This document shows positions 36,937 to 56,938 of a stretch of 64,000 nucleotides of DNA, piece by piece. The notes beneath the pieces are model-generated. The model searched no databases, had not been told where the DNA came from, and was given only the letters and a program-made list of their open reading frames with translations. Position 1 is the stretch's first letter. The number at the start of each line of letters is the position of its first letter. The translations under genes and the position numbers were made by a program. The DNA comes from a virus, in the IMG/VR virus record IMGVR_UViG_3300037067_020797, positions 1 through 64,000 of that record; one strand, 5' to 3'.

Positions 36937-38595
36937 TTAACCTCTTATGAAATCACTTATAATCTTTGGTGCAGAGGCATCAAAACCTGCAACATTCATC
37001 GTATATGGACTTTCTCCGGCAATAGATCCTTCAGTAGCAGATGTAGCTATGCTAATAAGTTTTGCTGGTATACCCATGCTACGCTGATAAGATTGTAATG
37101 CCTGTATAGGATGTGTTCTACCGGCCCATGTTTCATTATCAGTATAAACAAGAAATGCATCAACTGGTAATCTGTGCTGTTCTGCATAGATCATTGGAAG
37201 AGAACAATCGGTGCCACCATAATTCTGATTAGCAACACGTCGCATAACCTCACTAAGGCTTTGCTTTGCCGAGATTCCAAGGTCGATGAAATTAGTTGAG
37301 AACCCTTTTATAACCCAATCTTGTTCAGTACGCATAACTAACATTGACATGGCTGCAGTAACCTCACATGCTCTTAATTGTTCAGATCCAATAACACTAC
37401 ATGAACTCATGGATCCAGATATATCCAATCCAATTAAGATTCTTTTACCAGTGGGTTGTACAGTTCCAAATGATAAGTAAAATGCATCATCCAAAGCATC
37501 GACCAATTTTTGTATTGGTTGCCATGTAGAACTACCACGAAAACTATGACCTGATTTGTAGGTAGCATAGGCCAATAAAACTTGTATCGGATGTACTCGG
37601 CCTTTTTTAAGCAAATCCATATCATGTAACTTTTCAGCCACAAGTTTGGTATTTTCACTTCCGAGTTCGCCTAATACTCCAGCATTTGTTAATGTTGGTA
37701 ATTGACGAATAAGTGCAGTAATACCTAAATTCGGTATAATCGCGTCATAAAGATCTTTTGTTCGCTTTTCAGTCGGAACAAGTTCCATTGGTAAATTGTA
37801 TTTCTCTACCAAGCGAATAACTTCTTTTTGGTTATCCGTTGCCTTGATTTCCTCGTAGGCCCAGATTATGGGTAATTGTGCCTTGTAGGATTCGAGATCC
37901 TTTTGATATTGTTCAAGATTATAATTCTTGGAACCCTTATCTTTCTGTTGATGGAATTTTTCAACAGCCCATTTAAACGCTAATAACTGCGTATCGGTAT
38001 TTGGTGTTGGATGTGCCAATCGTAATATATCACGATGACTCCAACCATCACGAGATTGATACTTGGTTAATTGCAATGCTAACTGTTCGTCATTACGATC
38101 GATATACCATGCAGATATCGCATTACGTAACGATCTTGACCAACCACGCATCTTGTCAACATAATCAACAAAATGAAATAAATGAGTTCCGATTCGTGCA
38201 ACCTTTGCTAAGTTTTGTAGCGCGTATTTGCGTGTTTCAGCATTTTCAGCCGATGCGCACATAGCAAGTACAAATAAAGCTGGATCGTTCTTTGCAGCGC
38301 GACCAGCATCAGAAATTTCTATAACGATATCTACAACTCGTTTACCATCCGATTGTATGCACTTAGCAACATTCTTTGCATTATCGGCAGTCATTTGTTG
38401 TTTGCCAACATAATAGTTACCAGATTCTGATCCTAAGATCAAGAATCTTTCTAATCTTGCCCACTCATCAATCTCAAAAACATAACCACCTGCGGCATTC
38501 TTAATCATCTTTTTGCCGGGAATTGGTTGTGATTGTGGGGTAGGACCTTTTGGATTCATAGCTTGTGCAGCTTGAGATAATACTGTTTTCTTCAT
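36937..38595 (-). CDS. rsr: Ro60 (TROVE domain + vWA) orthologue, Rsr-like
   Basis: GGYVFEIDEWARLERFLILGSESGNYYVGKQQ aligns with Ro60 [31 protein letters not shown]. C-terminal vWA MIDAS ILIGLDISGSMS. Start placed at the ATG at 38595, preceded by AAGGAG. The track ORF extends to an upstream GTG at 38784 that lacks an RBS. Confidence 0.75.
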   Translation of the reverse strand: MKKTVLSQAAQAMNPKGPTPQSQPIPGKKMIKNAAGGYVFEIDEWARLERFLILGSESGNYYVGKQQMTADNAKNVAKCIQSDGKRVVDIVIEISDAGRAAKNDPALFVLAMCASAENAETRKYALQNLAKVARIGTHLFHFVDYVDKMRGWSRSLRNAISAWYIDRNDEQLALQLTKYQSRDGWSHRDILRLAHPTPNTDTQLLAFKWAVEKFHQQKDKGSKNYNLEQYQKDLESYKAQLPIIWAYEEIKATDNQKEVIRLVEKYNLPMELVPTEKRTKDLYDAIIPNLGITALIRQLPTLTNAGVLGELGSENTKLVAEKLHDMDLLKKGRVHPIQVLLAYATYKSGHSFRGSSTWQPIQKLVDALDDAFYLSFGTVQPTGKRILIGLDISGSMSSCSVIGSEQLRACEVTAAMSMLVMRTEQDWVIKGFSTNFIDLGISAKQSLSEVMRRVANQNYGGTDCSLPMIYAEQHRLPVDAFLVYTDNETWAGRTHPIQALQSYQRSMGIPAKLISIATSATEGSIAGESPYTMNVAGFDASAPKIISDFIRG

Positions 38596-38862
38596 TTCGA
38601 CTCCTTTTAGGATGTAAAAAATAAGATGAGCAATGTTTAAAAGTCGGATGCTTTTGACAAGCAGCGGATCTGGATTATAGCTCCAGCACCTTGGCATATT
38701 CTTTTTATCGCGCAAACAGCGGCATCCTGAACCCAGGTGCAGGTCGTTATTAATATGGGATTCATTCGGTTTCACAGAAACCACTCGACTTTATTAATTG
38801 TAGCCGAGCAGCTTCTCCGCCGAATGGAATATTAATAACTTATTCGATTGTATAATTGGTAA

Positions 38863-39226
38863 CCAACTTTAGTTCGGCTCATCACCATATGTAACAAGTG
38901 CCGTTTTATTTTTGGCGAAACGACTTACGCATACTACTGTAATTATTCCCAGTAGTTAAGAATGGGTGCTTTCGCACCTCCACCATGTGATCATGGATCA
39001 CAGTCTTCCTCGGTAAATGAATCTTCAGTTGTTCATCCGGTTAAGGGCCCCAACATGACGTTCTCATTTCACAACGAGGAATAATGACAATGGCAATCGA
39101 TTTTCGCCGGATGCAAGCATCCCGCTTAGCCATTGCATAAAACAAATTTCGGCAAAATATTGAGCTCGGAGACTGCCTTTTACATTTCCTAGGCTGGTTG
39201 TGGACTTTCACCACGTTTCTTTTTTA
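38863..39226 (+). ncRNA. candidate small RNA divergent from the Ro60 gene (Y-RNA-like partner hypothesis)
   Basis: Extended -10 element TGTATAAT at 38849-38856. No ORF follows. Hairpin-dense (ACTACTG/CAGTAGT, GGTGC-TTTC-GCACC, GTGATC-ATG-GATCAC, GGATGC/GCATCC). Ends with hairpin tgtggactttcaccacg plus TTTCTTTTTT at 39199-39226. Confidence 0.3.
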
Positions 39227-40350: not shown

Positions 40351-40512
40351 TATTTTTTCCAGTGATAACGATGACAGACGGCCCTAAAAATTAAAGCTGA
40401 ATAATAGTTTGAGACGGAGATTTGTCCGCCCACTGCTTACGCAGTGAGGTAGCCATCGGACGCTGCTACCTTTTCCATTGTGATAACCATCTCGATTCGA
40501 CTCAGCTTATAG

Positions 40513-40592
40513 TAGGGATTGATGGATTCGAACCACCGACTTCCTGTCCGTGAACAAGTCCTCTGGCCATTATTCTTCTGAGGTAAATCCCT
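40513..40592 (-). ncRNA. tRNA-like element (perfect acceptor-like stem and T-arm, oversized D- and anticodon-like loops)
   Basis: Minus strand: AGGGATT-TA-CCTC[16-nt loop]GAGG-ACTT[13-nt loop]AAGT-C-GGTGG-TTCGAAT-CCATC-AATCCCT-A. 7-bp acceptor-like stem and canonical TTCGAAT T-loop. The middle arms do not fit a canonical cloverleaf. Confidence 0.3.
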
Positions 40593-40599
40593 GTGTTAC

Positions 40600-40676
40600 T
40601 GGTGGACCCGAAGGGAGTCGAACCCTCCACAGATTGCTTGCAAGGCAGCCTCGCCCCCAACGGAACATGCGAGCCC
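40600..40676 (-). tRNA. tRNA-Ala (anticodon UGC), CCA encoded
   Basis: Minus strand: GGGCTCG...CTTGCAA anticodon loop (U33, TGC, A37)...GAGGG-TTCGACT-CCCTT-CGGGTCC-A-CCA. Acceptor stem with the G3:U70 wobble. T-arm canonical. D-arm irregular, with one C-A mismatch in the anticodon stem. Confidence 0.6.
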
Positions 40677-40710: not shown

Positions 40711-40912
40711 TTTTTTGTCTTTAAGTAAGATAAGATAACGATCTAAATCCGGCCCTACATTAATATATGATTTTTTTACTTTAAAGTCAAGTAAATTCTT
40801 GGCGCGTGTCCGGCAATCTTTACTTGTTAAGGGGATGTAAAGATGTTTGGAGGAGTCGGTCCTAGCCAATTCTGACACGCGTTAGTGCTGTAAACAGCAC
40901 ATAGTGAATATC

Positions 40913-42176: not shown

Positions 42177-42462
42177 TTATTAGTGGTGCCGTTCTTATAT
42201 TTAAACGTTGTAAATAAGCATCTTGAATGCTATCAACACGGCATTGCTCAGAATAATTTTCTTTTTGAGTATGCTCTAAAATCTCAATTCGTTTTTTTAA
42301 ACTATCCGACACTTGACACATGATAACTAAACTGTCAGATTTTTCTTGATTACTTTTTTCAATATCTTCAATAGCTATTGCATTTGCAGCATGTCCCAAG
42401 CCTAAACTAAAAAGTAATATAAATATGAATACAACAAATATTATATTAAAATATTCATTCAT
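42163..42462 (-). CDS. small secreted or membrane protein
   Basis: N-terminal hydrophobic signal-like segment. Confidence 0.3.
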   Translation of the reverse strand: MNEYFNIIFVVFIFILLFSLGLGHAANAIAIEDIEKSNQEKSDSLVIMCQVSDSLKKRIEILEHTQKENYSEQCRVDSIQDAYLQRLNIRTAPLINGVQ

Positions 42463-42926
42463 AGCTGTTCCAATAATTGTGGATAAAAATTTGTTTTTGC
42501 TCTAAATCCGTGCTGAGTAATAATCCATTGATCATATGCTTCTGCTGCTTCTTGTTCTAAAACAAACGGACCTTTAGCCTTATCATAAGCCATATAATAA
42601 TAACCATCCTCTCGTTTAAATACTCCTATGAACATAGAAGGTTTTTTCCATGATTTCTTTTCAAGAAACATGGTATTACGGGCACAATTTAACTCATCTC
42701 CAAAAAGATGATGTATCTTAACATTAGTATATGGCGTTAGACAATAAACAAATCGTTCTAATGTGATTTGATATGGAATGGCATTTAGTTCTGGGTGGCC
42801 AACTGGTTTTAAATAAACGCAAGCGCGAGGTTTACCTTTTCGAAGATGCCAAGTATAATGAGAAACACGGTCAAAATCTTCATCATTAACCTTCGCTTCC
42901 TGTCCGTCTATCTGTATTATTTTCAT
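42459..42926 (-). CDS. hypothetical protein
   Basis: 155 aa. Confidence 0.35.
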   Translation of the reverse strand: MKIIQIDGQEAKVNDEDFDRVSHYTWHLRKGKPRACVYLKPVGHPELNAIPYQITLERFVYCLTPYTNVKIHHLFGDELNCARNTMFLEKKSWKKPSMFIGVFKREDGYYYMAYDKAKGPFVLEQEAAEAYDQWIITQHGFRAKTNFYPQLLEQL

Positions 42927-43159: not shown

Positions 43160-44035
43160 TTAAAAGTTGCCGTCGGCTACCTGAAAAACAACGATATTAA
43201 GATCATTCCTATACATTCGTATCATCTGATCTCTATCATCCAAAGCAAATAAAACCGAAAATTTTCCAGCTATATTGGCATCATATAACTCACGTTTCAC
43301 TATACAATCCTTTCGAAAATCCTTAGTCGTACGCATATATAATGCATCGTAAGTTATGTTATATTTCTTAAGCCAACGTTCAGTATGAGGTCTAAATTGT
43401 TCTTCTCTTCCTGACATTAGTATTATACGAAGATCTTTGCCATTTTTCAAGTACATTGATTTCATAGCTTCTAATGTTTGAGCTACCGGAATAGATACTG
43501 CATCATCCTCACATTTAACCGTTTCAAATGGGCCTCGATTTGTAAATAATGCCAGTGTACCATCAAGATCACAAATAATGGCGAAAGGCAGAGTGGAATC
43601 TGTAGCTATTATAGGCTGTCGCTTTACACCTGGAAGAAATCTCACAAAGCTCCGAACAACCTTTTCACCAACGTGCCCTTCGCCAACTTTACGCTGTGAA
43701 TCCCGATATACACATTCCTCTACTGAGACATCTGTGAAATCTTGAACTATGTATTCAGCATCACAATCTTTCGCAAATTGAACTAAAGCATCAAATGTCT
43801 TTGGAATGAGATTAGTATCATCACTAATTACATCTATTCCGGACTGTAATAAACTTGTGATATTCTCATCCCTTAATTTACGTATAAAGTCTTCGCTTTT
43901 CCCTGGATAAGTTTTCCGTAAAGCATCACGATTTACAATACATGTACCAGGATGACTTGTAACATATTCTTTTGCCCACGTGGATTTACCTGAACCAGGT
44001 AATCCACGACAAATAATAAATTTAGATTTCGCCAT
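43160..44035 (-). CDS. pnk: polynucleotide 5'-kinase / 3'-phosphatase (T4 Pnkp-like)
   Basis: N-terminal P-loop kinase IICRGLPGSGKSTWAKEY. C-terminal HAD phosphatase motif ICDLDGTLALF (DxDGT). About 291 aa, like T4 Pnkp. Confidence 0.7.
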   Translation of the reverse strand: MAKSKFIICRGLPGSGKSTWAKEYVTSHPGTCIVNRDALRKTYPGKSEDFIRKLRDENITSLLQSGIDVISDDTNLIPKTFDALVQFAKDCDAEYIVQDFTDVSVEECVYRDSQRKVGEGHVGEKVVRSFVRFLPGVKRQPIIATDSTLPFAIICDLDGTLALFTNRGPFETVKCEDDAVSIPVAQTLEAMKSMYLKNGKDLRIILMSGREEQFRPHTERWLKKYNITYDALYMRTTKDFRKDCIVKRELYDANIAGKFSVLFALDDRDQMIRMYRNDLNIVVFQVADGNF

Positions 44036-44285
44036 ATTTTTTATCCTTATTTATTTTATAATACCATAAATATGCCCCGCTTAATGCTCCAGCTAAAATA
44101 GTTAACACAATTATAACCCAATTATATATTCCTGCAACCTTTAAAATAGCATTTAAAGTTGCCCATGGTAATGCGCCTAACATAATTGTGATATAAAACA
44201 AAAAAGTATTTTTTAGTTTTTGCCAAAACATACTATCATCTATATAATATATCTGACACGTATTTGACCTCTTCATCCCACGCAC
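44022..44285 (-). CDS. small membrane protein
   Basis: Two hydrophobic helices. Confidence 0.3.
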   Translation of the reverse strand: MRGMKRSNTCQIYYIDDSMFWQKLKNTFLFYITIMLGALPWATLNAILKVAGIYNWVIIVLTILAGALSGAYLWYYKINKDKKYGEI

Positions 44286-44922
44286 CGATTAAGTGCCACC
44301 AATTGCCTACAGGTGATTTTCCAAGAACGATTGGATCCTTCTTTCTTTCGACTTCTCTTGCTACGCTTTCTTTTACGATTAATATAATTTCAGCTTCATC
44401 AGAGTCAACCCATAACTTACCCCAGGCAGTCCTAAACTTACTTATTTCTTCAAGACCTTCGGTTGGTATTGTTGAAATGTAACTATTTATCGGAACTCGA
44501 CAAAGTTTATATTTAGCCAAAAGATCATTAATGGCAGCTTCTGTTACGACAGGCCAGGGAGAAAGAATTTCTGGACATTTGCGAAATCTTTTTCTTGCTT
44601 TAAGATAAAGTAGTGCTAATTTTTCCTCGTCAAAATCTAATTTATTCTTCTTTATTATCTTTATTCTGGCATTTACTACACTGATAGCTTTATCCAAATT
44701 TTCCAAATATAATAAAGGAATATTTGGCTGTATTAATTGTTTTACAACATCTACAGGGTTACTATCAATACGTTTATCCATTTGATCCTCGAATGCGGGG
44801 TTAACAGCAAAGGTAGAGCCAAAAGTACCCCATCTTGATCCCATAATAAAAGAATTCCTTCGCCTGGATAATTTTTTAATACCAGTAATAAATTTTTTAG
44901 TAAATCTGACTAAATTATTCAT
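44236..44922 (-). CDS. hypothetical protein
   Basis: 228 aa. Confidence 0.35.
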   Translation of the reverse strand: MNNLVRFTKKFITGIKKLSRRRNSFIMGSRWGTFGSTFAVNPAFEDQMDKRIDSNPVDVVKQLIQPNIPLLYLENLDKAISVVNARIKIIKKNKLDFDEEKLALLYLKARKRFRKCPEILSPWPVVTEAAINDLLAKYKLCRVPINSYISTIPTEGLEEISKFRTAWGKLWVDSDEAEIILIVKESVAREVERKKDPIVLGKSPVGNWWHLIGAWDEEVKYVSDILYR

Positions 44923-44931
44923 AGATTTCTC

Positions 44932-45171
44932 CTAACTTGTTTTAGATTTTCCTTTATTTACTATTGTTCCTAAGGGAAAAGGTTGCGTGTATTCTATAAA
45001 TTTATAACAATCGGGGCATATGCCTACAGAATAAGTTTCACCGCCGACGGTGATCATAATATCTTTGTCATGGGGGCATAATAATTGAGCTAACCAGTTA
45101 GGCCAGAAATTTATTAATATCCCATGTGATCGTCTCCACCAGTGAGTAGGACGAATATAAGTTTCAAACAT
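44932..45171 (-). CDS. small Cys-containing protein
   Basis: 79 aa. C..HD...CPDC pattern. Confidence 0.3.
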   Translation of the reverse strand: MFETYIRPTHWWRRSHGILINFWPNWLAQLLCPHDKDIMITVGGETYSVGICPDCYKFIEYTQPFPLGTIVNKGKSKTS

Positions 45172-45305
45172 TTTATCCTTTCAAATAATTGAGGGGTCTT
45201 GCGACCCCCCGATAGTATAATATTACACGTCATGTTACCAGCGTGCCGGCCTACAGTACAATCGAGAAAACAGCCGGTCGTGAAAGGATGTTTAGTTCGA
45301 TTGTT

Positions 45306-46091
45306 TCACAGTAAGTTATTTTTATGTAATATTTGTTTTTGAATTTGTACTAACTGATTATCCAGCCAGTCATAATCAAACTTTTCCGGCAATATGCTAT
45401 CTCTGTTAGCTTCATCCAGATCTTGTTCATAGCATTTAAATAGGTACTGAAATTCCTCTAAGGTTATTTGTCCTAATTTTACTTCCATACATATTTTTTG
45501 TTGTACTTCTGGAAGTCTTACAGGAAAATATCCTTCGAGCAATGCTTCTTTACCGGCATACATTAAACGTATACAATGTGATGCATTGCGAGGAGAGTAA
45601 TTTAAACGTTCGAGCTCTTCCTTTCGTCGGGCTCCTAAATCACGAGAAGATTCACCAAGTGCTTTGCGATATTCTGCGTAAGAGTACCCATGTATAACGT
45701 TATATATCTGTTTGGTAATAAAGGCTTCTTTATGTAAAAGAATATAATACTTAAATTGTTCGTTGCCGTCAAATAAGACGCAGTCTTCTGGGCTGAACAA
45801 CATTTCTAACATCTGTGTATTACCAGCTGCAGCTAAATGACAAAATTTACGAACATGCCAATAAACTTTATCTTCTGGTTCTGGAAATACTTTTTGTTCA
45901 AAGATTTTCATACCAAAATAATACCTTAAATCATCTGGCATCACTACACCACGTATGTCAAGATCCGATTCGGGGGTAGCTAATCCATAGGCATGAGAGC
46001 CAATTTTGCATTCATATAATTTAATTAAATTCATATTAATAAAACCACGTATGTGTCCATTGACCAATAATCTTAATATGTGATAATACAA
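45306..46091 (-). CDS. minimal nucleotidyltransferase (Pol-beta superfamily)
   Basis: GSHAYGLATPESDLDIRGV fits the GS-x9-DxD nucleotidyltransferase signature. Sits in the RNA-repair neighbourhood. Confidence 0.5.
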   Translation of the reverse strand: MYYHILRLLVNGHIRGFINMNLIKLYECKIGSHAYGLATPESDLDIRGVVMPDDLRYYFGMKIFEQKVFPEPEDKVYWHVRKFCHLAAAGNTQMLEMLFSPEDCVLFDGNEQFKYYILLHKEAFITKQIYNVIHGYSYAEYRKALGESSRDLGARRKEELERLNYSPRNASHCIRLMYAGKEALLEGYFPVRLPEVQQKICMEVKLGQITLEEFQYLFKCYEQDLDEANRDSILPEKFDYDWLDNQLVQIQKQILHKNNLL

Positions 46092-46195
46092 TTAATATAA
46101 AAACATACCAAGATACTACTTCAGTAATACACATTATAAGTCCAACTACGATAAAAATAATTGAAAACAAATTTATTTCGGTTATTCTCCAACAT

Positions 46196-46624
46196 TTATT
46201 CATCTAATACTCCTGCCTGAATTAGTGTCCTTCTAAGATTAGTAGAGACATATTCATGTGCATTTTCTTTAGTTACATATTTGAAAGCATCTGCTTCTGG
46301 AAATGGTTTTCGATTAGGAAGCTTTACCATTTCCGTGCATTTAAGTGTATCGATATTTGGAAGTTTATCTAACGTAATTTTAAAGAGATAGAGATCCTTT
46401 GCAGGTAGATACGTAAACTGCCCAAGATCTTGAATTACAGCTATATCTGTAGGTATAGTAAAACCAGTTTCCTCTTTAACCTCGCGAAGGCATGCATCTA
46501 AAAAATCTTCCGCTACTTCAACTCCACCTTTGGGTATATCCCAAATCTTTTGTCCTGTCGCATGACAGACTAAAAAACTGGTGCCATCTGTTAAAATGGC
46601 ACCCGCTGATATCTTACGAGGCAT
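46196..46624 (-). CDS. Nudix hydrolase
   Basis: Nudix box GGVEVAEDFLDACLREVKEETGF. Confidence 0.65.
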   Translation of the reverse strand: MPRKISAGAILTDGTSFLVCHATGQKIWDIPKGGVEVAEDFLDACLREVKEETGFTIPTDIAVIQDLGQFTYLPAKDLYLFKITLDKLPNIDTLKCTEMVKLPNRKPFPEADAFKYVTKENAHEYVSTNLRRTLIQAGVLDE

Positions 46625-46696
46625 TTAGTTTTCCTTTCTCTGCTAAACGCCGTAATCGTCTTTTTTGTTTCCTTAATTTGCGAGCCTGAATAGCAC

Positions 46697-47449
46697 GTGT
46701 ATGTATTTTATTTGCCTCAGCTCTTAGAATTTGACCTTTTAAGAAGTTCATGGATTCATGTCCTTATGCATTTAGGTGTTTTTATGATTTGCATTTTTGC
46801 AGATATTTTTGTATATTATAAAATGACTAAAATAATAGAACATAAAATTAAAGAAGCTTATAATAACGGACATTCCTATAAAAGCATAATGCATGAGTTT
46901 AACGTTAGTTATGGCACGATTTGTGGTATTATTGGAAAATTTAAACTTGCCGGTCGAAAACTTAAAATAAAACTAATAGGAAAAAATAAAGCAAAATGTA
47001 GCAGATGTCATAAAATTCGACCATTAAGTAGATTTAGTGTAGGGCATTCTACTAAAAAGTATTATTATAGCTTTTGTAATACCTGCCATCAGGGGAAAAG
47101 AACAATTTATTATAATACTAATATAGAAAGTCGTTTAAAATTAATATATACTCACCTTAAGAGCAAAGCTAAAAAACTAAATCTTAAATTCTTTATTTCA
47201 TTTGAGGAATTTAAAAATATTTATAATAAACAAAATAATAAATGTTATTATACTGGATTTACAATGACAACGAAATTAGGAAATGGAGCTTCAAAATTTG
47301 CAATTTCAGTTGATCAAATTATACCCGGCAAAGGTTATACAAAAGATAATATTGTATTTTGTACGCGTTTTGCAAATTCCATAAAAAGTAATTTATCCAA
47401 ACAAGAATTAAGGAAATGGATAAAAGCTATTTATCAACATATTAATTAA
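46697..47449 (+). CDS. zinc-finger / HNH-like endonuclease domain protein (possible homing endonuclease)
   Basis: Two CxxC/CxxH pairs (CSRCHK, CNTCHQ). C-terminal VDQIIPGKGYTKDNIVFCTRFANSIKS resembles a degenerate HNH core. Confidence 0.35.
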   Translation: MYVFYLPQLLEFDLLRSSWIHVLMHLGVFMICIFADIFVYYKMTKIIEHKIKEAYNNGHSYKSIMHEFNVSYGTICGIIGKFKLAGRKLKIKLIGKNKAKCSRCHKIRPLSRFSVGHSTKKYYYSFCNTCHQGKRTIYYNTNIESRLKLIYTHLKSKAKKLNLKFFISFEEFKNIYNKQNNKCYYTGFTMTTKLGNGASKFAISVDQIIPGKGYTKDNIVFCTRFANSIKSNLSKQELRKWIKAIYQHIN

Positions 47450-48525
47450 GCAGGAAGAACCTGGTGCAGTAGTTTTTTATAAGCATCGTTATCTAATTCT
47501 CGATTATCGAGCATCGTAAATACAAATCCCGATCGACTCGTTTTACCGTAAGCAGATATGATCTTAGCTGCTGCTTCCTTTCTTGGAAGTGTTCGCACTT
47601 CGTCAGCAAAAAATTTCATATGGTCAAGGATCTTATTAACTTCTTTATTCGCATCGGCTAATTTACTTATATCTCCACGTGCAATAACTGCACATTCGTA
47701 ATCGTAGGTATTGGCTACATAATCGTAAAATTCTTGATAAGACGGCCGACCACATAACACGTACGCTTCAAGTAAATTATTGATACTTAAGTCACTTTTG
47801 AATGCATGTATCGCCAGATATTTTTGGCCTTTAACTTTTTTGATGTGTTGATCTTTATCATAGTATAAACAAACGCCCTCCTTACCATCAAATGCTCTAA
47901 CTTGGGATAATAAATCTTCAACGTCCTCAAACCTAAGCGTCGGTGGGCGCGGAATGCCCAGGTTATCTGCCATGACATCAAGTGTATTTTGAGAGAGCAG
48001 ACTATAATCATCATGAACAATGGCACCGACAAGGAAAAGTTCCGGATCCGGTCCCAGGTCGAGAACGATTCGATTTTTGGGGCTGTACCATTCGAAGATT
48101 CTTGTGAAGTTGTCATTAGGTATTTCGAAAGCTCTCCGATATTTCTTTTTAAGCAGTTCAATCTCGTCTGCATTATCAAATATACTAACATCAAATGTAC
48201 CTCGGGTACGTATGATTAATTTATCCTTAAATGGTGAAACTATAAGAGTACTTCCATCTATTTTTTCAACTGCCGTTGTTCCTATTAAACTATCAGGAGC
48301 CGGTATAATATTATCCTTTTCATCCCAGTTAAAAAACTTAGGAAAACTTGGGCTTACAAGATAACCATCTTCAGTCCATATTGATGATCTGAAGATTAAA
48401 TTTTCTTTAGTCCAAGTGCATCCCATGTGCTGCGGATGCACAAGAACTAAAGGTTCTCCATACTGGGTAGAGGTCTTCCGCAAGAACTCTTCAGAAAGCG
48501 ATTCTAATGGGTAAGATAGTTTCAT
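47446..48525 (-). CDS. ATP-dependent RNA ligase, T4 Rnl1-like (putative)
   Basis: Nucleotidyltransferase motif I VEKIDGSTLIV (KxDG). Size 359 aa. Same region as Pnkp. Confidence 0.5.
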   Translation of the reverse strand: MKLSYPLESLSEEFLRKTSTQYGEPLVLVHPQHMGCTWTKENLIFRSSIWTEDGYLVSPSFPKFFNWDEKDNIIPAPDSLIGTTAVEKIDGSTLIVSPFKDKLIIRTRGTFDVSIFDNADEIELLKKKYRRAFEIPNDNFTRIFEWYSPKNRIVLDLGPDPELFLVGAIVHDDYSLLSQNTLDVMADNLGIPRPPTLRFEDVEDLLSQVRAFDGKEGVCLYYDKDQHIKKVKGQKYLAIHAFKSDLSINNLLEAYVLCGRPSYQEFYDYVANTYDYECAVIARGDISKLADANKEVNKILDHMKFFADEVRTLPRKEAAAKIISAYGKTSRSGFVFTMLDNRELDNDAYKKLLHQVLPA

Positions 48526-48911: not shown

Positions 48912-50609
48912 CTAACCAGCTTCGTATACCGATGCTTGATTTATTACAATTATTTTCTTGCCTTTAAATTTCAATGTTGCACCCTCTTCTACTTCGTCAC
49001 ATTGAAAATCTTTATAGGTATTTTTAACCCAGTTAAATCCACGAATAGAGCATTCATGTGCGGAATAAATGGTGTTATTATTAAAAGCAAGGGAATCTAA
49101 AGGCACTGCATACTTATTATTTGTATCGTGATAAAGAGTTTGTGTGCCCTCAAATATATAAGTTACAAATTGTCCAGATGATCTTTCATATATAAATAAC
49201 CATCGTTTAGAAACATTATCATAATGTAAACCATAATTAACCGGTTTCATTATTTCAGTAAGTTCTATAAATTGTCCATTAATTTCAACGACAGTTTTGT
49301 GATCATACATATTTATAACTATATAGCCGCCTAACGAATCAACTTCAAATAAGTTATTAATAGCAACATGAGTATCAGTGTAAAAAGCACTGCCCTTTTG
49401 ACTATATACACATGAGGAAAAACCTAATCCCGGAGTAATGTAATAAAATGTATTATTACCCATAATAACTATACGACTATTATGTAACTTAGGTATCGTG
49501 GCTGCACCTATATGAATATTATCTGCAGTCACATAAAGTAACGTACCATCACTTAAATAGTAAGTTTTCTTGTTAAAATAAATACCGGTCTCTTGACCAG
49601 TAGGAATATGCACGATAGTGTTATTTTCACTTATATATAGCTCTTCAGATAACATTTCTTTACATTCGGTACTTGAAAATAACCTGACTATTTTTATCTC
49701 GCCGGCCGTTACTTTAACTGGTTTGATTGGCTTTAAAGATGCAGTATAACATACTGGGCATTTATCATACTGTCCATAATAATCGTTTTTATGTTTACTA
49801 CACCAATTGAGATTTGATGTAAATTCTGTAAGACTATTAGTTAACACGGTTCTTATACCAGTATCATATATACGATGTAGGTCCTCTAAAAATCCTGGAT
49901 GCATATATTCCCACGGATCTATGATCTTAGGAATAATGGCTTTAACTTTTGGATTTAATACTGATAGACCTCTCTTCATCCTTTCGATAAGATCTAAATC
50001 AGGTTTAATATTTCCACCAAATGGATGAAGCCTGGTTAGACTTTTAAATGCAAGTATAGCAAACGCGTACGCGTCTGTACCTGCATTAAAATTACATCCT
50101 TTTAATTTAGGGTCTTTAAATGCGTCCATTGCAACAGTACATGGATATGAACCGACGCTCCAGCTGTCTGTATCTAATATATAAGGGTGAAAATTTTCAG
50201 TAAACACAACATTAGAATCATTTAGATCACCGATAAAAATATTTTGCGAATGAAGTTCTAATAGCGCATTACGTAAATCTATTAGCATTTGTAATATATT
50301 GTGAATTTTAATTCCATAAGTTGCAAGAGTTTTACGATTGGTTAAAGCGCGAAACTCTTCAATCTCATTTAATTTTTCCATAGTATAGCCTATGAAATTT
50401 CCGGCAGCATCATGCAGTATATCTTTAGGACCTATAGCTATACCAGGCAACATTGTTTGAAGAAGGATTTCAATTTTTTTGTACTTTGAATCTAAATCTA
50501 CTACTGGTTTAAATATTTTCATTATTTTGCCAGTACCTTTGTGAATATAGATCTGGCCCTCCCCACCTTCTGCGATAGGGGTACCTAAAGTTCTTTTATC
50601 GAGTTTCAT
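48912..50609 (-). CDS. eukaryotic-like Ser/Thr protein kinase domain protein with a C-terminal beta-rich domain
   Basis: Gly-rich loop GGEGQIY. Lys in KIMKIF. Catalytic-loop-like HSQNIFIGDLNDSNVVF. DTD in the DFG position. Confidence 0.5.
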   Translation of the reverse strand: MKLDKRTLGTPIAEGGEGQIYIHKGTGKIMKIFKPVVDLDSKYKKIEILLQTMLPGIAIGPKDILHDAAGNFIGYTMEKLNEIEEFRALTNRKTLATYGIKIHNILQMLIDLRNALLELHSQNIFIGDLNDSNVVFTENFHPYILDTDSWSVGSYPCTVAMDAFKDPKLKGCNFNAGTDAYAFAILAFKSLTRLHPFGGNIKPDLDLIERMKRGLSVLNPKVKAIIPKIIDPWEYMHPGFLEDLHRIYDTGIRTVLTNSLTEFTSNLNWCSKHKNDYYGQYDKCPVCYTASLKPIKPVKVTAGEIKIVRLFSSTECKEMLSEELYISENNTIVHIPTGQETGIYFNKKTYYLSDGTLLYVTADNIHIGAATIPKLHNSRIVIMGNNTFYYITPGLGFSSCVYSQKGSAFYTDTHVAINNLFEVDSLGGYIVINMYDHKTVVEINGQFIELTEIMKPVNYGLHYDNVSKRWLFIYERSSGQFVTYIFEGTQTLYHDTNNKYAVPLDSLAFNNNTIYSAHECSIRGFNWVKNTYKDFQCDEVEEGATLKFKGKKIIVINQASVYEAG

Positions 50610-50644
50610 TTGCTTTTTTAATTAAATTTTAGTATATTTATATA

Positions 50645-51346
50645 ATGCCACATTTTAAAAATCTTCTAAATAAACAATTTGGACGACTTACAGTTATTGA
50701 AATAACCGATAAACGTACTCCTACTGGCAAAGTAATATGGAAATGTAAATGTTCTTGTAATAAAATTCATGAAGTTAATTCTAATAGTTTATTGTGTGGA
50801 TCCACTAAATCTTGTGGATGCCTACAAAAAGAATGGGCCGTTATTAATGGAAAAACTCGTTTACATGATGTAACTGGTCAAACTATTAACGGTATTAAAA
50901 TTATTCGCATGTCTGACAAACGATCAGGTAGAAATGCATATTGTTTTGCTTTATGCCCAGTTTGTGGTAATGAATGGGAAGTACAAGCAAGTCTTTTAAG
51001 AACGAGGCATTCCACACAATGCAAAACTTGTAGTTTCCGAGCCATGTCATCAAAAACAGCTGAAAGGCTATTCAACAAATTAGAAGACAAATTGGATCTT
51101 AAAATTATTCGCGAATATCGAATTAACAATCGATTTTTTGATGGCTACATACCAGAATTAAAATTATTAATAGAGTCTGATGGTAGTTACTGGCATTCTA
51201 AACCCGAAAGTGTAGAAATCGATGCCGAAAAAGATAAGTTAGCCAAAGAAGCGGGTCTACAATTAATTCGAGTAACTAATAATAATGAAAAAGATCATCC
51301 CGCTGCAATAGAAAAAATTTACAATGCAATTGTTATATCATCTTGA
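50645..51346 (+). CDS. zinc-ribbon repeat protein with a C-terminal DUF559/Vsr-like PD-(D/E)xK endonuclease domain
   Basis: Three Cys clusters at the N-terminus. C-terminal YIPELKLLIESDGSYWHS...LIRVTN resembles the DUF559 endonuclease core. Confidence 0.4.
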   Translation: MPHFKNLLNKQFGRLTVIEITDKRTPTGKVIWKCKCSCNKIHEVNSNSLLCGSTKSCGCLQKEWAVINGKTRLHDVTGQTINGIKIIRMSDKRSGRNAYCFALCPVCGNEWEVQASLLRTRHSTQCKTCSFRAMSSKTAERLFNKLEDKLDLKIIREYRINNRFFDGYIPELKLLIESDGSYWHSKPESVEIDAEKDKLAKEAGLQLIRVTNNNEKDHPAAIEKIYNAIVISS

Positions 51347-55231: not shown

Positions 55232-55833
55232 CTACCAGCCCGTAATCTAAACAAGTCTTAGCATCAAACCAAAGATCATGATCAAGTATCTCATCTATTT
55301 TTTCTGCTGGGATTTTGGTATATTTAGTATAAATCGACTTAATCGTTTCCATCAATTTATCACTATTTATCATATCATCTTTTAACTCACGATATTTGCC
55401 AGCTCGCTGAAAACAATTGATGTATTAACATGAAAGCATTTGCACGGATAATACGTTTTTTGCCTACAACAGTAAGAAATGTAGCGGCGCTGGCACAACA
55501 ACCATCAACTACAGTTACAACCGGTACTTTTGATCCTATAATTTCATCCATTGCTGATAGTCCTGCAAAAATGCTGCCACCATAACTATTTACATGAAGA
55601 AAAATGCAGGCAGGATCGCGTTCTTGAATAGAGGCCTGTACAAGTAAATCATTATTTAATTCACGTAAACGTCGATTTAATTGTAAGATCTCAGAACGGT
55701 AAATTTCTGAATAGAAAAATATACGATTAGACACCATCTCTACAAATGATGGCTCTTTAAATATTTCCCCTGCACGTTTTTTTTCAACTTCTTCACGAGG
55801 GGCCTCTTCACCCCAAAAATCTTTTTTATTCAT
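55218..55833 (-). pseudogene. ClpP-like serine peptidase, interrupted by a +1 frameshift (N-terminal 148 aa in frame A, C-terminal about 57 aa in frame B)
   Basis: Frame A (55387..55833): VNSYGGSIFAGLSAMDEI and GCCASAATF match the ClpP catalytic-Ser region, and LIHQL carries the His. Frame A ends in TGA at 55387-89. The +1 frame across this point reads QRAGKYRELKDDMINSDKLMETIKSIYTKYTKIPAEKIDEILDHDLWFDAKTCLDYGLVDEIR, a ClpP C-terminus. Confidence 0.5.
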
Positions 55834-56938
55834 ATTTTAATAAGAACTCCGGATTAATATATTTAAATTTGAGTCTTCCTAATGTTCCTATCCGAGTAGG
55901 TTTCATTGCTACATAAACTACACCTTCGGCAGGAGTATCGTTATCATACTTTAATTCACTAACATATGTAAATTTTTCTTCCACATGTTTACGAATCGGC
56001 CCAAAATAAATTTCTTTTACCATTGGAATTTGATAAGTGAAGCAATAAGCTTGAAACCGAGAAGGAGACAAGAATTCTGATATATCGCCATTATACATAT
56101 CGAACGCAAAGAAGGTTATTTCTGTAAGTCCCATTTTATTTTTCTGAATACCGGGTCCACAGATTTCTCCTTGAATTGCAAATCGCTTAATATTATAAGT
56201 TGTTGCTATCTCTTTGACTTTATTAAGCAAATTATATTTATATGCAATTTGCCAATAAATATTTGTATTCTTAGGTTTTTCTCCTTCAACCCATTTATTT
56301 GCGCCTTCGTCGGATTCTTTAACTTCCCAATTACGACTACATACACCAACATGATCGGTTTCCGCATCATAAAATACCGTAATACTCATACCATCCATTT
56401 TTACACTGACGGTAAAATAATCGTCTAAATAAGGCTCGATGCTGCGGTTGTAATTTTGATATCGTTCAGCATCAGATTTTTCACACCAACCAGGGTAATT
56501 ACCGGCTGATAAAGGTGGAATACTTTCTGCAGGAGGTTCATATTTTATGATTTCAAAATATTCTGCAACATCATAATTTATAACATTGATTTTTTCTACA
56601 GGACCTTTTTTTAATTCATTTTCTGTTATCCATTGAAGAAGTTCAGTAGTAACATTTAAAAGAATACCTTGTGATACTTCACCACGGAGTCTAATAGTTC
56701 TGATACGAGATGTGCCATCAGCCTTAGCTCGAGGTTTAAGAAATTCGAATTCTGGTCTTGATATTTTCACCTTTGAATCAATAGGCACATATACCACAAA
56801 ATCACCAGGTTTACGAGCATGTATTTTATCAACACATCGCCAGCCTATTTCTTCGAATTCTATTAAATCTAATGCATCTGCATTTGGATGTTTAGTAACT
56901 GATTTAACAGTTACTATTGGAACTGAAAAAGTACTCAT
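55826..56938 (-). CDS. ATP-dependent polynucleotide ligase (KxDG nucleotidyltransferase, RNA-ligase-like)
   Basis: Motif I FTVSVKMDGMSITVFYD. 370 aa. Second ligase in the window. Confidence 0.45.
   Translation of the reverse strand: MSTFSVPIVTVKSVTKHPNADALDLIEFEEIGWRCVDKIHARKPGDFVVYVPIDSKVKISRPEFEFLKPRAKADGTSRIRTIRLRGEVSQGILLNVTTELLQWITENELKKGPVEKINVINYDVAEYFEIIKYEPPAESIPPLSAGNYPGWCEKSDAERYQNYNRSIEPYLDDYFTVSVKMDGMSITVFYDAETDHVGVCSRNWEVKESDEGANKWVEGEKPKNTNIYWQIAYKYNLLNKVKEIATTYNIKRFAIQGEICGPGIQKNKMGLTEITFFAFDMYNGDISEFLSPSRFQAYCFTYQIPMVKEIYFGPIRKHVEEKFTYVSELKYDNDTPAEGVVYVAMKPTRIGTLGRLKFKYINPEFLLKYE

What the first reader, a model, noticed from the sequence alone, without database searches (positions are those of the whole stretch)
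43160..48525. RNA-repair toolkit clustered with a tRNA: Pnkp, Rnl1-like ligase, minimal nucleotidyltransferase, Nudix, plus a second ligase nearby
The cluster contains a T4-type Pnkp (kinase P-loop plus DxDGT phosphatase), a KxDG ligase (EKIDGS), a GS-x9-DxD minimal nucleotidyltransferase that could repair tRNA 3' ends, and a Nudix enzyme. A second KxDG ligase lies at 55826..56938, and a tRNA-Ala lies 2.5 kb away. This is the classic counter-defence against host anticodon nucleases. Two separate ligases and a separate NTase suggest a broader repair capacity than the T4 Pnkp/Rnl1 pair.
Basis: partly seen in the sequence, partly recalled or inferred. Interest (0 to 1): 0.55.

Follow-up and report, generated by a model that had tools for sequence, protein, structure and literature searches.

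The report
Jumbo-phage RNA repair gene cluster

Summary
On the minus strand lie a T4-type Pnkp (43160-44035), an RlaP-family nucleotidyltransferase (45306-46034), a Nudix hydrolase (46196-46624), an Rnl1-family RNA ligase (47446-48525) and, 7 kb away, an Rnl5 (DraRnl/NgrRnl) RNA ligase (55826-56938). All catalytic motifs are intact. The order Rnl1-Nudix-RlaP-Pnkp is colinear in seven related genomes from large-phage contigs. The "tRNA-Ala" (40600-40676) falls just below default detection thresholds, but its counterparts in relatives are clear tRNA-Ala(UGC) genes. The most likely function is healing and sealing of RNAs, chiefly tRNAs, broken by host ribonucleases. This combination is already described for jumbo phages. 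T4 itself has two RNA ligases and an RlaP, so the claimed "broader than T4" capacity is overstated. The cluster is a new member of a known kind. Directly upstream of it is a conserved, covarying RNA of 205-270 nt (38616-38883). Its terminal helix, G(G)C[C]GA/UUGC(C), copies the Ro-binding helix of Y RNAs. It matches no Rfam family and lacks the tRNA-like core of bacterial YrlA, so it is a candidate new Y-RNA variant.

The parts
47446..48525 (-). Rnl1-family ATP-dependent RNA ligase (359 aa). Motif I K88-I-D-G-S, motif III E145, motif IV E216-G217, motif V K230/K232. All-helical C-terminal domain at aa 234-356.
   Evidence: PF09511 34 bits against a cutoff of 28.3. phrog_562 6e-32 over the full length. 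T4 Rnl1 9e-4 by sequence. Invariant motif residues in 22 homologues. AF2 model pLDDT 91.7; the best PDB fold match is T4 Rnl1 at E 1e-15 over about 375-382 columns.
46697..47449 (+). HTH plus EndoVII/HNH-type homing-endonuclease-like gene inserted between Rnl1 and Nudix on the opposite strand. Not part of the repair system.
   Evidence: phrog_1035/3322/3118. Absent at this position in L037, L113, L114, L115 and L117.
46196..46624 (-). Nudix hydrolase (142 aa) with an intact Nudix box at aa 33-55. Substrate unknown.
   Evidence: PF00293 7e-13. phrog_1185 1e-27. The closest solved relatives are Dcp2 decapping Nudix domains (9e-6) and Ap4A hydrolases. It always lies between Rnl1 and RlaP in the clade.
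45306..46034 (-). RlaP-family (RNA-ligase-associating Pol-beta) nucleotidyltransferase, 242 aa. G12-S13-H14 motif and catalytic D24, D26, D55.
   Evidence: PF10127 59.6 bits against a cutoff of 23. phrog_388 2e-40. 78 of the 79 homologues carry PF10127. Invariant GSH and three Asp residues. AF2 model pLDDT 93.9 shows an NTase domain plus a helical domain.
44022..45171 (-). Three accessory ORFs of unknown function (79 aa, 228 aa, 53-87 aa with a membrane-like segment) between RlaP and Pnkp. They are preceded by a GC-rich hairpin at 45191-45210.
   Evidence: No Pfam, PHROG or PADLOC hit. Absent in L037, where RlaP and Pnkp overlap. The ORFs at this position vary across relatives. Hairpin.
43160..44035 (-). 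T4-type bifunctional polynucleotide 5'-kinase/3'-phosphatase (291 aa). P-loop G11-LPGSGKS, kinase D37/R40, phosphatase D156-L-D-G-T, S208-G-R-E, K242, D266-D267.
   Evidence: PF25109 1.4e-40 plus PF13671. phrog_505 8e-76. 4xrp Pnkp1 1e-43 and T4 Pnk 1ltq 1e-31 over the full length, with the catalytic residues aligned.
55826..56938 (-). Rnl5-family (DraRnl/NgrRnl) RNA ligase, 370 aa. N-terminal OB domain plus a C-terminal NTase with K180-M-D-G, E258, E338, K357/K359.
   Evidence: TIGR02306 155.6 bits against a cutoff of 151.15. PF21189 plus PF09414. Naegleria RNA ligase 5cot 3.5e-30. Present in the same island in L113, L115, L117 and the P0008 contig.
40600..40676 (-). Probable tRNA-Ala(UGC), 77 nt with an encoded CCA. 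G3:U70, a normal T arm and anticodon loop CUUGCAA, but a weak D arm.
   Evidence: Not called at default thresholds. Called at ARAGORN -ps95. Orthologues in L037, L038, L113, L114 and L117 are called at default settings. The acceptor stem covaries and G3:U70 is invariant.
40512..40592 (-). tRNA-like element B. 7-bp acceptor stem, canonical T arm (GGUUCGAAUCC), a 16-nt D loop and a 6- or 8-nt 'anticodon' loop. Function unknown.
   Evidence: Rfam tRNA 14.8 bits, sub-threshold. ARAGORN calls it only at -ps85. Conserved only in L038, with compensatory changes in the anticodon-like stem.
38616..38883 (-). Candidate Y-like RNA directly upstream of Ro60. Terminal helix P1 GAUGAGC[C]GA / UUGCUCAUC with a bulged C, P2 AAGUUGG/CCGACUU, hairpins H1 and H2, and a 3' U-tract.
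   Evidence: Conserved in L037, L038, L113, L114 and L117. 96% of cells paired, 14 of 25 pairs with changes on both sides, 0 of 500 shuffles as high. The MFE fold recovers P1, P2, H1 and H2 with z = -4.69. No Rfam hit.
36937..38595 (-). Ro60/Rsr orthologue (552 aa; TROVE ring plus vWA domain).
   Evidence: PF05731 5e-41 plus PF25045 9e-54. D. radiodurans Rsr 2nvo 4e-114, RO60 9nen 4.3e-114 and 60-kDa Ro 1yvp 9e-109 over the full length. The 552-aa start is from gene calls.

Best explanation
This is a phage-encoded RNA end-healing and sealing operon. It belongs to a conserved island of roughly 20 kb in a clade of uncultivated large (jumbo-size) phages.

Inferred pathway:
1. A host ribonuclease, typically an anticodon nuclease, cuts a tRNA and leaves 2',3'-cyclic-phosphate and 5'-OH ends.
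2. The Pnkp phosphatase domain removes the 3' phosphate, and its kinase domain phosphorylates the 5'-OH.
3. [quoted passage not shown]
4. The Rnl1-type ligase reseals breaks in tRNA loops.
5. The Rnl5 ligase seals 3'-OH/5'-P nicks in duplex RNA.

The role of the Nudix enzyme is uncertain. It may trim 5' or cap-like ends of RNA, or hydrolyse a dinucleotide or ADP-ribose-type by-product.

The enzyme families, intact active-site residues and conserved gene order are shown here. The substrates, the order of steps and the counter-defence role are inferred from characterised homologues (T4 Pnkp and Rnl1, Naegleria and Deinococcus Rnl5, Pseudomonas RlaP).
For: - Family assignments with intact catalytic motifs for all five enzymes.
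- The Rnl1-like model matches T4 Rnl1 best and over its full length.
- The RlaP model has the two-domain architecture reported for PfRlaP (PMC12776372).
- The genes are tightly spaced on the same strand.
- The order Rnl1-Nudix-RlaP-Pnkp is colinear in seven distinct related genomes despite variable inserts.
- Distant phage Pnkp loci repeatedly pair Pnkp with Rnl1, Rnl5, RlaP or Nudix.
- The literature describes exactly this enzyme set as the jumbo-phage answer to tRNA-cleaving defences, and shows that RlaP adds 1-2 NMP to the RNA 3'-OH at tRNA breaks (PMC7824862, PMC12776372).
- The neighbouring tRNA-Ala and Ro60 genes indicate an RNA-centred island.
Against: - No activity, substrate or host nuclease is known for this phage, and the host is unidentified.
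- The Rnl1-like protein is far from T4 Rnl1 in sequence (about 15-17% identity in the fold alignment; TIGR02308 43 bits against an equivalog cutoff of 242). tRNA-loop specificity is therefore assumed.
- The Nudix subfamily is unresolved.
- RlaP has no close solved structure in the library searched. Its nearest folds are HalB and ANT(4') at TM of about 0.4.
- Rnl5 is 7 kb away and is missing from the 10-kb flank of L114, so its link to the operon is looser.
Confidence: 0.8

Rival explanations
1. The island is an RNA housekeeping and quality-control unit rather than a counter-defence device. Pnkp, the ligases and RlaP would process or salvage the phage's own tRNA-Ala, tRNA-like RNA and Y-like RNA, or damaged rRNA and tRNA during infection stress. 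They would work with a Ro60-Y RNA particle, as the rsr-yrlBA-rtcBA operon does in Salmonella.
For: - Ro60, a covarying Y-like RNA, tRNA-Ala and a tRNA-like RNA sit in the same conserved island downstream of Pnkp.
- Bacterial Ro60 and Y RNA genes are linked to RNA repair operons (PMC4201824, PMC7790460 abstract).
- No nuclease target is identifiable here.
Against: - The two roles are not exclusive.
- The same enzymes in T4 are classically tied to the PrrC anticodon nuclease (established knowledge; PMC7824862).
- Ro60 and the operon are separated by several unrelated genes and by a promoter-like site.
Confidence: 0.3
2. The Nudix gene, and possibly other neighbours (NAD synthase 57652-58503, isochorismatase-like 53175-54056), serve NAD+ or ADP-ribose metabolism against NAD-depleting host defences. 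Their placement beside the RNA repair genes would then be co-location of separate counter-defence modules, not one pathway.
For: - NadE scores PF02540 5e-67.
- Weak Nudix hits to the Nudix half of NMN adenylyltransferase/Nudix fusions.
- NadE lies next to Pnkp in the distant loci L008 and L059.
- PARP-like and NadE genes occur in relatives' islands.
- Nudix is discussed as an ADP-ribose processor in jumbo phages (PMC7824862).
Against: - Nudix lies between Rnl1 and RlaP in all seven clade genomes, in some with overlapping reading frames (L117).
- It is adjacent to Pnkp in the unrelated loci L057 and L060.
- Its best solved relatives are RNA-decapping and Ap4A hydrolases, not ADP-ribose pyrophosphatases.
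Confidence: 0.3
3. The Rnl1-like protein acts mainly as a virion assembly factor, like T4 gp63 which catalyses tail-fibre attachment. Pnkp would serve DNA-end or nucleotide metabolism, so the cluster would not be a dedicated RNA repair pathway.
For: - PHROG 562 is annotated 'RNA ligase and tail fiber protein attachment catalyst'.
- T4 Pnkp also acts on DNA ends (established knowledge).
- An NT5C-like nucleotidase lies nearby.
Against: - All ligase catalytic residues are invariant across 22 homologues.
- The gene is embedded among RNA-specific partners (RlaP, Rnl5, tRNA, Ro60), not structural genes.
- RlaP is reported to be inactive on DNA (PMC12776372).
Confidence: 0.07

Closest known systems
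Phage T4 RNA repair set (Pnkp/PseT, Rnl1/gp63, Rnl2, RlaP NrdC.11)
   Same: Bifunctional kinase-phosphatase with the same domain order and catalytic residues. An Rnl1-type ligase with a helical C-terminal domain. An RlaP NTase (PMC12776372). A second ligase is present in both.
   Different: The second ligase here is Rnl5 (N-terminal OB domain), not Rnl2. A Nudix gene is built into the operon. Sequences are very distant (Pnkp phmmer E 1e-31 to T4 Pnk; Rnl1 about 15-17% identity in the fold alignment). A Ro60 gene and a Y-like RNA are in the island; I know of no T4 counterpart to these (my own knowledge, not checked here).
Jumbo-phage RNA repair systems as catalogued by Iyer et al. 2021 (PMC7824862), citing Burroughs and Aravind 2016
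   Same: Multiple RNA ligase families per genome, a polynucleotide kinase/phosphatase, RlaP tracking the ligases, tRNA genes, occasional ROT/TROVE (Ro60) with a tRNA-like partner, Nudix and NAD-salvage genes nearby.
   Different: This particular phage clade has no close match in the phage record collection. Its fixed order Rnl1-Nudix-RlaP-Pnkp and its Ro60-associated RNA are not, to my knowledge, described individually.
Bacterial Pnkp1-Rnl-Hen1 and RtcB-RtcA(-RlaP) repair operons
   Same: The best solved match of the Pnkp is the bacterial Pnkp1 (4xrp, 1e-43). RlaP sits inside repair operons next to a ligase (PMC12776372).
   Different: No Hen1 methyltransferase and no RtcB/RtcA were found in the window. 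The ligases here are ATP-dependent 5'-phosphate ligases, which are compatible with the 3'-OH product of RlaP.
Ro60-Y RNA particles (vertebrate Y RNAs; bacterial Yrn1 and YrlA, Rfam RF02553)
   Same: The RNA gene lies directly upstream of Ro60 on the same strand. The 5' and 3' ends form a long stem. The 5' motif G(G)CCGA with a bulged C next to G.U and A-U pairs resembles GGUCCGA/UUGAC and bacterial GNCGAA (PMC4201824). A 3' U-tract follows.
   Different: It is 205-270 nt against 80-130 nt. It has no recognisable T or D arms and no YrlA model hit, whereas the more distant phage locus L039 does hit YrlA. Binding to Ro60 is untested.

Membership tests
T4-type Pnkp (bifunctional 5'-kinase/3'-phosphatase) | N-terminal P-loop kinase with Walker A GxxGxGK[ST] and the catalytic Asp/Arg (T4 D35/R38) | tested here: met
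   G11-LPGSGKS; N35-R-D37-A-L-R40 aligns with T4 NRDDYR.
T4-type Pnkp (bifunctional 5'-kinase/3'-phosphatase) | C-terminal HAD-type phosphatase with DxDGT and downstream SGRE, K and DD motifs, placed after the kinase | tested here: met
   D156-L-D-G-T, S208-G-R-E, R-K242-D, D266-D267; PF25109 covers aa 150-291 end to end.
T4-type Pnkp (bifunctional 5'-kinase/3'-phosphatase) | Kinase and 2',3'-cyclic/3'-phosphatase activity on RNA ends | not testable with these tools
   Needs a biochemical assay.
Rnl1 RNA ligase | Covalent nucleotidyltransferase motifs I (KxDG), III, IV and V | tested here: met
   K88/D90/G91, E145, E216-G217 and K230/K232 are invariant in 22 homologues and align with the T4 Rnl1 motifs.
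Rnl1 RNA ligase | All-helical C-terminal domain in place of an OB domain | tested here: met
   The AF2 model has aa 234-356 all-helical. The top Foldseek hits are T4 Rnl1 2c5u/5tt6/9do4 at E 1e-15 over 374-382 columns. This is a prediction, not an experimental structure.
Rnl1 RNA ligase | Curated profile cutoffs | tested here: inconclusive
   Passes Pfam PF09511 (34 bits against 28.3). Far below the NCBIfam equivalog cutoff TIGR02308 (43 bits against 242). It is a divergent branch with more than 1000 metagenomic relatives.
Rnl1 RNA ligase | Preference for breaks in tRNA anticodon loops | not testable with these tools
   Needs a biochemical assay.
Rnl5 (DraRnl/NgrRnl) RNA ligase | N-terminal OB domain fused to a C-terminal ligase NTase domain | tested here: met
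   PF21189 covers aa 8-95 and PF09414 covers aa 174-360. The alignment to NgrRnl 5cot covers both domains, 3.5e-30.
Rnl5 (DraRnl/NgrRnl) RNA ligase | Curated equivalog score and motif I lysine | tested here: met
   TIGR02306 155.6 bits against a cutoff of 151.15. K180-M-D-G aligns with NgrRnl KLDG.
RlaP nucleotidyltransferase (PF10127) | Profile match above cutoff, and better than generic or MNT-type NTase models | tested here: met
   PF10127 59.6 bits against a cutoff of 23. PF01909 18.4 bits, below its cutoff of 21. 78 of the 79 listed homologues carry PF10127.
RlaP nucleotidyltransferase (PF10127) | GS motif and three strictly conserved catalytic aspartates | tested here: met
   G12-S13-H14, D24, D26 and D55 are invariant in 17 diverse members. 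The three-Asp requirement is from PMC12776372.
RlaP nucleotidyltransferase (PF10127) | N-terminal NTase domain plus a C-terminal helical domain forming a cleft | tested here: met
   AF2 model pLDDT 93.9, with strands and helices at aa 3-105 followed by helices at aa 110-238. No RlaP structure was found in the PDB copy; the nearest folds are HalB and ANT(4') at TM of about 0.4.
RlaP nucleotidyltransferase (PF10127) | Genomic association with RNA ligase and repair genes | tested here: met
   Flanked by Rnl1/Nudix and Pnkp in seven genomes. Also seen as Rnl5-RlaP-Pnkp (L042) and RlaP-Pnkp (L069).
Nudix hydrolase | Nudix box GX5EX7REUXEEXGU | tested here: met
   G33-GVEVAEDFLDACLREVKEETGF.
Nudix hydrolase | Assignable substrate class (RNA 5'-end/decapping, Ap4A or ADP-ribose) | tested here: inconclusive
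   The best hits are Dcp2 (9e-6) and Ap4A hydrolases, driven mostly by the Nudix box. RppH and NadM-Nudix models score far below their cutoffs.
tRNA-Ala | Cloverleaf detected at default thresholds | tested here: not met
   ARAGORN at default settings finds 0 genes. Rfam tRNA is below the gathering score. The D arm is weak.
tRNA-Ala | G3:U70 identity pair, UGC anticodon in a 7-nt loop, T arm, and orthology to clear tRNA-Ala genes | tested here: met
   Orthologues are called at default settings in L037, L038, L113, L114 and L117.
Ro60/Rsr | TROVE ring domain plus C-terminal vWA domain, with full-length similarity to Ro60 | tested here: met
   PF05731 and PF25045. 2nvo 4e-114, 9nen 4.3e-114 and 1yvp 9e-109 covering the protein.
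Y RNA | Encoded next to Ro60; ends pair into a long stem carrying a GGUCCGA-like or GNCGAA-like 5' motif | tested here: met
   The RNA at 38616-38883 ends 21 nt before the Ro60 start codon. P1 and P2 covary. G(G)CCGA with a bulged C is present in 4 of 6 genomes and GCCGC in the other 2. The reference motifs are from PMC4201824.
Y RNA | Size of 80-130 nt and, for YrlA, tRNA-like T and D arms or a match to RF02553 | tested here: not met
   Length is 205-270 nt. No YrlA hit at E<=5. No T or D arms seen. L039 hits YrlA at 37 bits and serves as a control.
Y RNA | Binding to Ro60 | not testable with these tools
   Needs co-immunoprecipitation or a gel-shift assay.

The most novel reading that the evidence does not exclude
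The conserved RNA of 205-270 nt immediately upstream of the phage Ro60 gene is a genuine Ro60-bound Y RNA of a new, long subclass that does not mimic tRNA. Together with tRNA-Ala, the tRNA-like RNA and the Rnl1-Nudix-RlaP-Pnkp operon, it would form one phage-encoded RNA damage-response unit. In that unit a Ro60 particle recognises or presents broken or misfolded RNAs to the repair enzymes.
Probability: 0.3. Interest if true: 0.55.

Novelty: new member of a known kind. Interest (0 to 1): 0.33.

Why it matters
The cluster adds a well-conserved example, from an uncultivated phage clade, to the known phage strategy of repairing tRNAs cut by host defence nucleases. It also gives a clean natural context in which RlaP sits between a 5'-phosphate ligase and Pnkp. 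In that arrangement the 3'-OH product of RlaP is compatible with the ligase, which is the compatibility problem raised for RtcB operons in PMC12776372.

The fixed position of a Nudix gene inside the operon points to a step in end-healing that has not been explained and can be tested.

The more useful lead is the Ro60 gene with a covarying RNA carrying a Y-RNA-like Ro-binding helix in a repair island. Phage Ro60 biology is almost unstudied, and this gives a defined RNA and protein pair to test.

Tried and rejected
- **Close relatives in annotated phages.** A megablast of the cluster found nothing. Protein-level hits are at most 32% identical.
- **Close relatives of Pnkp in public contig sets.** IMG/VR and the metagenome contigs gave only relatives at or below 41% identity and no conserved block. 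The clade was instead reached through Ro60 and through RlaP homologues.
- **The segment after tRNA-like element B as a Y RNA.** I first suspected 40385-40512 because it contains GUCCGAUGG. I rejected this. The motif is missing in L037 and L113. The segment is one of three copies of a repeated hairpin-plus-U-tract spacer that flanks the tRNA genes.
- **Fold search for RlaP.** It could not discriminate function. No RlaP structure turned up in the library. The nearest folds were Hailong HalB and ANT(4') at low TM, and there were no CCA-adding or OAS/cGAS hits among the 50 matches listed.
- **RNAalifold on the MAFFT alignment of the Ro60 leader.** It recovered only part of H2, because the hairpins are out of register in that alignment. 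I therefore registered the helices by hand.
- **PADLOC.** It gave nothing for the unknown neighbours.
- **Burroughs and Aravind 2016.** The paper is not held in the library.
- **T4 gene arrangement.** The T4 region I fetched (143-153 kb) does not contain pseT or rnlA, so I make no claim about how T4 arranges these genes.

Full report
**1. What is at the coordinates**

The interval 43160-48525 is a run of tightly spaced minus-strand genes, interrupted by one plus-strand gene.

- **Pnkp (43160-44035).** Pfam gives HAD_PNKP (1.4e-40) plus a P-loop kinase domain. The protein aligns end to end with bacterial Pnkp1 (4xrp, 1e-43) and T4 polynucleotide kinase (1ltq, 1e-31). The Walker A motif, the kinase Asp/Arg, DxDGT, SGRE, the Lys and the DD motifs are all conserved.
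- **NTase.** It is a member of PF10127 RlaP (59.6 bits against a cutoff of 23). The generic NTP_transf_2 model scores below its threshold. Gene callers and all close homologues use an internal ATG, so the gene is 45306-46034 and encodes 242 aa. A 17-sequence alignment shows invariant GSH, D24, D26 and D55. These are the three aspartates that Carruthers et al. report as strictly conserved and required for catalysis (PMC12776372).
- **Nudix (46196-46624).** It has a complete Nudix box.
- **First ligase (47446-48525).** It matches PF09511, and it matches PHROG 562 over its full length at 6e-32.
- **Plus-strand gene (46697-47449).** It is an HTH plus EndoVII/HNH homing-endonuclease-like gene. It is absent at this position in the relatives, so it is an insertion.

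**2. Classifying the two ligases**

The first ligase is a divergent Rnl1.
- Motifs I, III, IV and V are invariant across 22 homologues.
- An AlphaFold model (pLDDT 91.7) has an all-helical C-terminal domain.
- The best matches among solved structures are the three T4 Rnl1 entries (E about 1e-15, 374-382 aligned columns). They score ahead of the fungal Trl1 ligase domains, Rnl3, Rnl5 and Rnl2.
- It passes the Pfam cutoff but not the NCBIfam equivalog cutoff.
- It has more than 1000 metagenomic relatives.

The second ligase (55826-56938) is an Rnl5.
- It passes the curated TIGR02306 (DRB0094) cutoff.
- It has the N-terminal OB domain PF21189 typical of this family.
- It aligns with the Naegleria nick-sealing RNA ligase at 3.5e-30.

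In this family the OB domain is the hallmark of an RNA ligase.

**3. The NTase by fold**

The RlaP model is confident (pLDDT 93.9). It has an N-terminal NTase domain and a C-terminal helical domain, as described for the PfRlaP crystal structure (PMC12776372). That structure did not turn up in the PDB copy searched. The nearest solved folds are Hailong HalB and kanamycin nucleotidyltransferase, at TM of about 0.4 and 11-16% identity. No CCA-adding or OAS-type enzyme appears among the 50 matches listed. The fold search is thus uninformative. Family membership rests on the profile, the catalytic residues and the gene context. [quoted passage not shown]

**4. Conservation in relatives**

No near-identical DNA exists in the phage record collection. 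The same phage appears in several SRA assemblies, the longest in the 0.2-1 Mb class. Two routes led to a clade of related large-phage contigs: L037 (from a 215 kb contig), L038, L113, L114, L115, L117 and one contig without stored DNA. The first route went through Ro60. The second went through RlaP homologues at 48-62% identity.

The order Rnl1-Nudix-RlaP-Pnkp is kept in all seven distinct genomes that cover it. The small ORFs between the genes vary. In L037 RlaP and Pnkp overlap, so the window's orf79 and orf228 are accessory.

The wider conserved order is: Rnl5, then (RNase H), isochorismatase-like, vWA, PP2C, kinase-like, Rnl1, Nudix, RlaP, Pnkp, two small ORFs, an NT5C-like gene, tRNA-Ala, a non-coding stretch and finally Ro60.

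L117 lacks the vWA-PP2C-kinase triad, so that triad is a separable module. Among 37 distant full-length Pnkp loci, tblastn found Pnkp within the fetched flank (up to 10 kb) of Rnl1 (5 loci), Rnl5 (2), RlaP (3), Nudix (3) or NadE (2). These counts are lower bounds. The linkage is recurrent but modular.

**5. The tRNA**

ARAGORN at default settings and Rfam at gathering threshold find no tRNA in the window. At 40676-40600 on the minus strand there is a 77-nt element with these features:
- a 7-bp acceptor stem that includes G3:U70;
- anticodon loop CUUGCAA;
- a normal T arm;
- an encoded CCA;
- a poorly paired D arm.

ARAGORN calls it tRNA-Ala(UGC) when its thresholds are lowered by 5%. The syntenic genes in L037, L038, L113, L114 (two copies plus a tRNA-Met) and L117 are called tRNA-Ala(UGC) at default settings. 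Four of these tRNA-Ala copies, and the tRNA-Met, also pass the Rfam gathering score. In the alignment G3:U70 is invariant and acceptor positions 5-7/66-68 covary. The window's copy is atypical and its function is unproven.

A second tRNA-like element (40512-40592) has a 16-nt D loop and a 6- or 8-nt anticodon-like loop. It is shared only with L038. The tRNA genes are flanked by three copies of a hairpin-plus-U-tract spacer whose stems covary between genomes.

**6.

The gene at 36937-38595 is a full-length Ro60/Rsr orthologue with TROVE and Ro60 vWA domains. It matches Deinococcus Rsr and the RO60 entry 9nen at about 4e-114, and the 60-kDa Ro entry 1yvp at 9e-109.

The roughly 680-nt non-coding stretch upstream is conserved across the clade. 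Its proximal part (38616-38883) can form these elements:
- terminal helix P1, GAUGAGC[C]GA paired with UUGCUCAUC;
- a second helix P2, AAGUUGG paired with CCGACUU;
- two hairpins, H1 and H2;
- a U-tract after P1.

On a hand-registered six-genome alignment of the helix columns, 96% of cells pair and 14 of 25 pairs carry changes on both sides. No shuffle out of 500 reaches the observed values on four of the five measures. Sliding the partners drops pairing to 49% or less. The alignment was fitted to the structure, and some of the P1 changes reflect a one-base length difference, so these numbers lean towards the model. As an independent check, the minimum-free-energy fold of the window RNA recovers P1, P2, H1 and H2 with z = -4.69, and L117 recovers P1, P2 and H1 with z = -2.28.

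The invariant core is a C-G pair, a bulged C, a G.U pair and then A-U, within 5' G(G)CCGA. This has the same form as the vertebrate Ro-binding helix GGUCCGA/UUGAC and resembles the bacterial GNCGAA motif (PMC4201824). The vertebrate pairing details are from my own knowledge of the hY1 and hY3 sequences.

The RNA is longer than known Y RNAs and has no visible T or D arms. It does not match Rfam YrlA. As a control, the more distant Ro60 phage locus L039 has a YrlA-type T-arm, acceptor-hairpin, D-arm module at the same position, enclosed by similar helices, and it matches RF02553 at 37 bits.

I rate this RNA a good candidate for a variant Y RNA. A structured leader or terminator of the Ro60 mRNA remains possible.

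**7. Mechanism and rivals**

The best-supported explanation is the classical heal-and-seal pathway:
1. the Pnkp phosphatase and kinase domains convert 2',3'-cyclic-phosphate/5'-OH ends to 3'-OH/5'-phosphate;
2. RlaP restores a lost nucleotide where one was removed;
3. Rnl1 seals loop breaks;
4. Rnl5 seals nicks in duplex RNA.

What is shown here: family membership, intact catalytic residues, operon-like spacing and conserved order. What is inferred: the substrates, the order of steps and the counter-defence purpose.

The rivals are a housekeeping or quality-control role with Ro60, a separate NAD or ADP-ribose role for Nudix and its neighbours, and a T4 gp63-like assembly role for the ligase. 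The first two are compatible with the main explanation.

**8. Comparison with what is known, and novelty**

Iyer et al. describe exactly this repertoire in jumbo phages: several RNA ligase families per genome, polynucleotide kinases and phosphoesterases, RlaP tracking the ligases, tRNAs, and occasional ROT/TROVE proteins with a tRNA-like partner (PMC7824862). T4 itself encodes an RlaP (NrdC.11) besides Pnkp, Rnl1 and Rnl2 (PMC12776372).

The cluster is a new member of a known kind from a clade with no cultured or annotated representative. The parts that are not routine are the fixed Nudix position inside the operon and the Ro60-associated RNA. Overall interest is modest.

Noticed in passing
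window 23567-29644 (+): A single 2025-aa ORF carries both RNA polymerase beta (Rpb2 domains, aa ~356-925) and beta-prime (Rpb1 domains, aa ~1124-1811) modules. This is a fused beta-beta' multisubunit-type RNA polymerase in a phage.
   Followed up: no
window 48912-53178 (-): A protein-kinase-like 565-aa protein, a PP2C phosphatase (PF13672) and a 219-aa protein lie just upstream of Rnl1. The 219-aa protein is syntenic with ~220-aa genes in relatives; I take it to be vWA-like from its sequence, but it had no Pfam or PADLOC hit. The three are conserved in L037 (partly), L113, L114 and L115 but absent in L117. They resemble a vWA-PP2C-kinase signalling triad.
   Followed up: partly
window 57652-58503, 57239-57664, 53175-54056 (-): NAD synthase (PF02540 5e-67) lies next to a DUF7831 gene, and an isochorismatase-like protein is nearby. 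Relatives add a PARP-like gene and a glutamine-dependent NadE. This is possibly an NAD+ replenishing counter-defence module beside the RNA repair genes.
   Followed up: partly
window 55218-55833 (-): The ClpP-like protease appears split into a 148-aa ORF (PF00574) and a following 51-aa ORF that looks like the ClpP C-terminus. This could be a frameshift, a pseudogene or a sequencing error.
   Followed up: no
window 50645-51346 (+) and 46697-47449 (+): Two plus-strand genes interrupt the minus-strand operons: one with CapR plus DUF559/Vsr-like domains, the other with HTH plus EndoVII/HNH. They are likely homing endonucleases. A relative carries an HNH gene next to its Rnl5 instead.
   Followed up: partly
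window ~40320-40385, ~40385-40512, ~40680-40755 (-): Three copies of a structured spacer element flank the tRNA genes. Each has an outer stem (GGGC/GCCC or AGCUGA/UCAGCU), an inner stem (AGAUCG/CGGUCU-like), a loop that begins UUAUC, and a U-rich tail. The stems covary across genomes. They could be terminators or processing signals.
   Followed up: partly
window 40762-40790 (-): A sigma-70-like promoter, TTGACT-17-TATATT, lies upstream of the tRNA block and is conserved in L037 and L038. A conserved structured segment (about 40800-40880) lies just upstream of it.
   Followed up: no
window ~38900-39270 (-): The distal half of the non-coding stretch before Ro60 is also conserved. Examples are AACGUGGUGAAAGUCCACAACCAGCCUAGGAAAUGUAAAAGGCAG, GGUGGAGGUG, and the hairpin CUACUG...CAGUAG, which becomes CCUCAG...CUGAGG in L113. 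It starts with the same ..UUGGUUAUC motif as the candidate Y RNA, so it may be a second Ro60-associated RNA. It has no Rfam match.
   Followed up: partly
L116 11706-15449: In a more distant phage, the Rnl5 homologue is split by an intein (PF14890), and an IS605 OrfB/TnpB gene sits next to it. RlaP and Nudix are nearby, but no Pnkp lies within 10 kb.
   Followed up: no
L039 3387-7940: A phage with a 43%-identical Ro60 carries 27 tRNA genes followed by a YrlA-like RNA (RF02553, 37 bits) directly upstream of Ro60. The motif GGUUAUC recurs three times in that leader.
   Followed up: partly
window 42459-42926 (-): The conserved 155-aa ORF downstream of Pnkp looks, by eye, like a degenerate HNH motif (HHLFGDELNCARN) followed by an AP2-like DNA-binding segment. 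PHROGs gave no hit.
   Followed up: no
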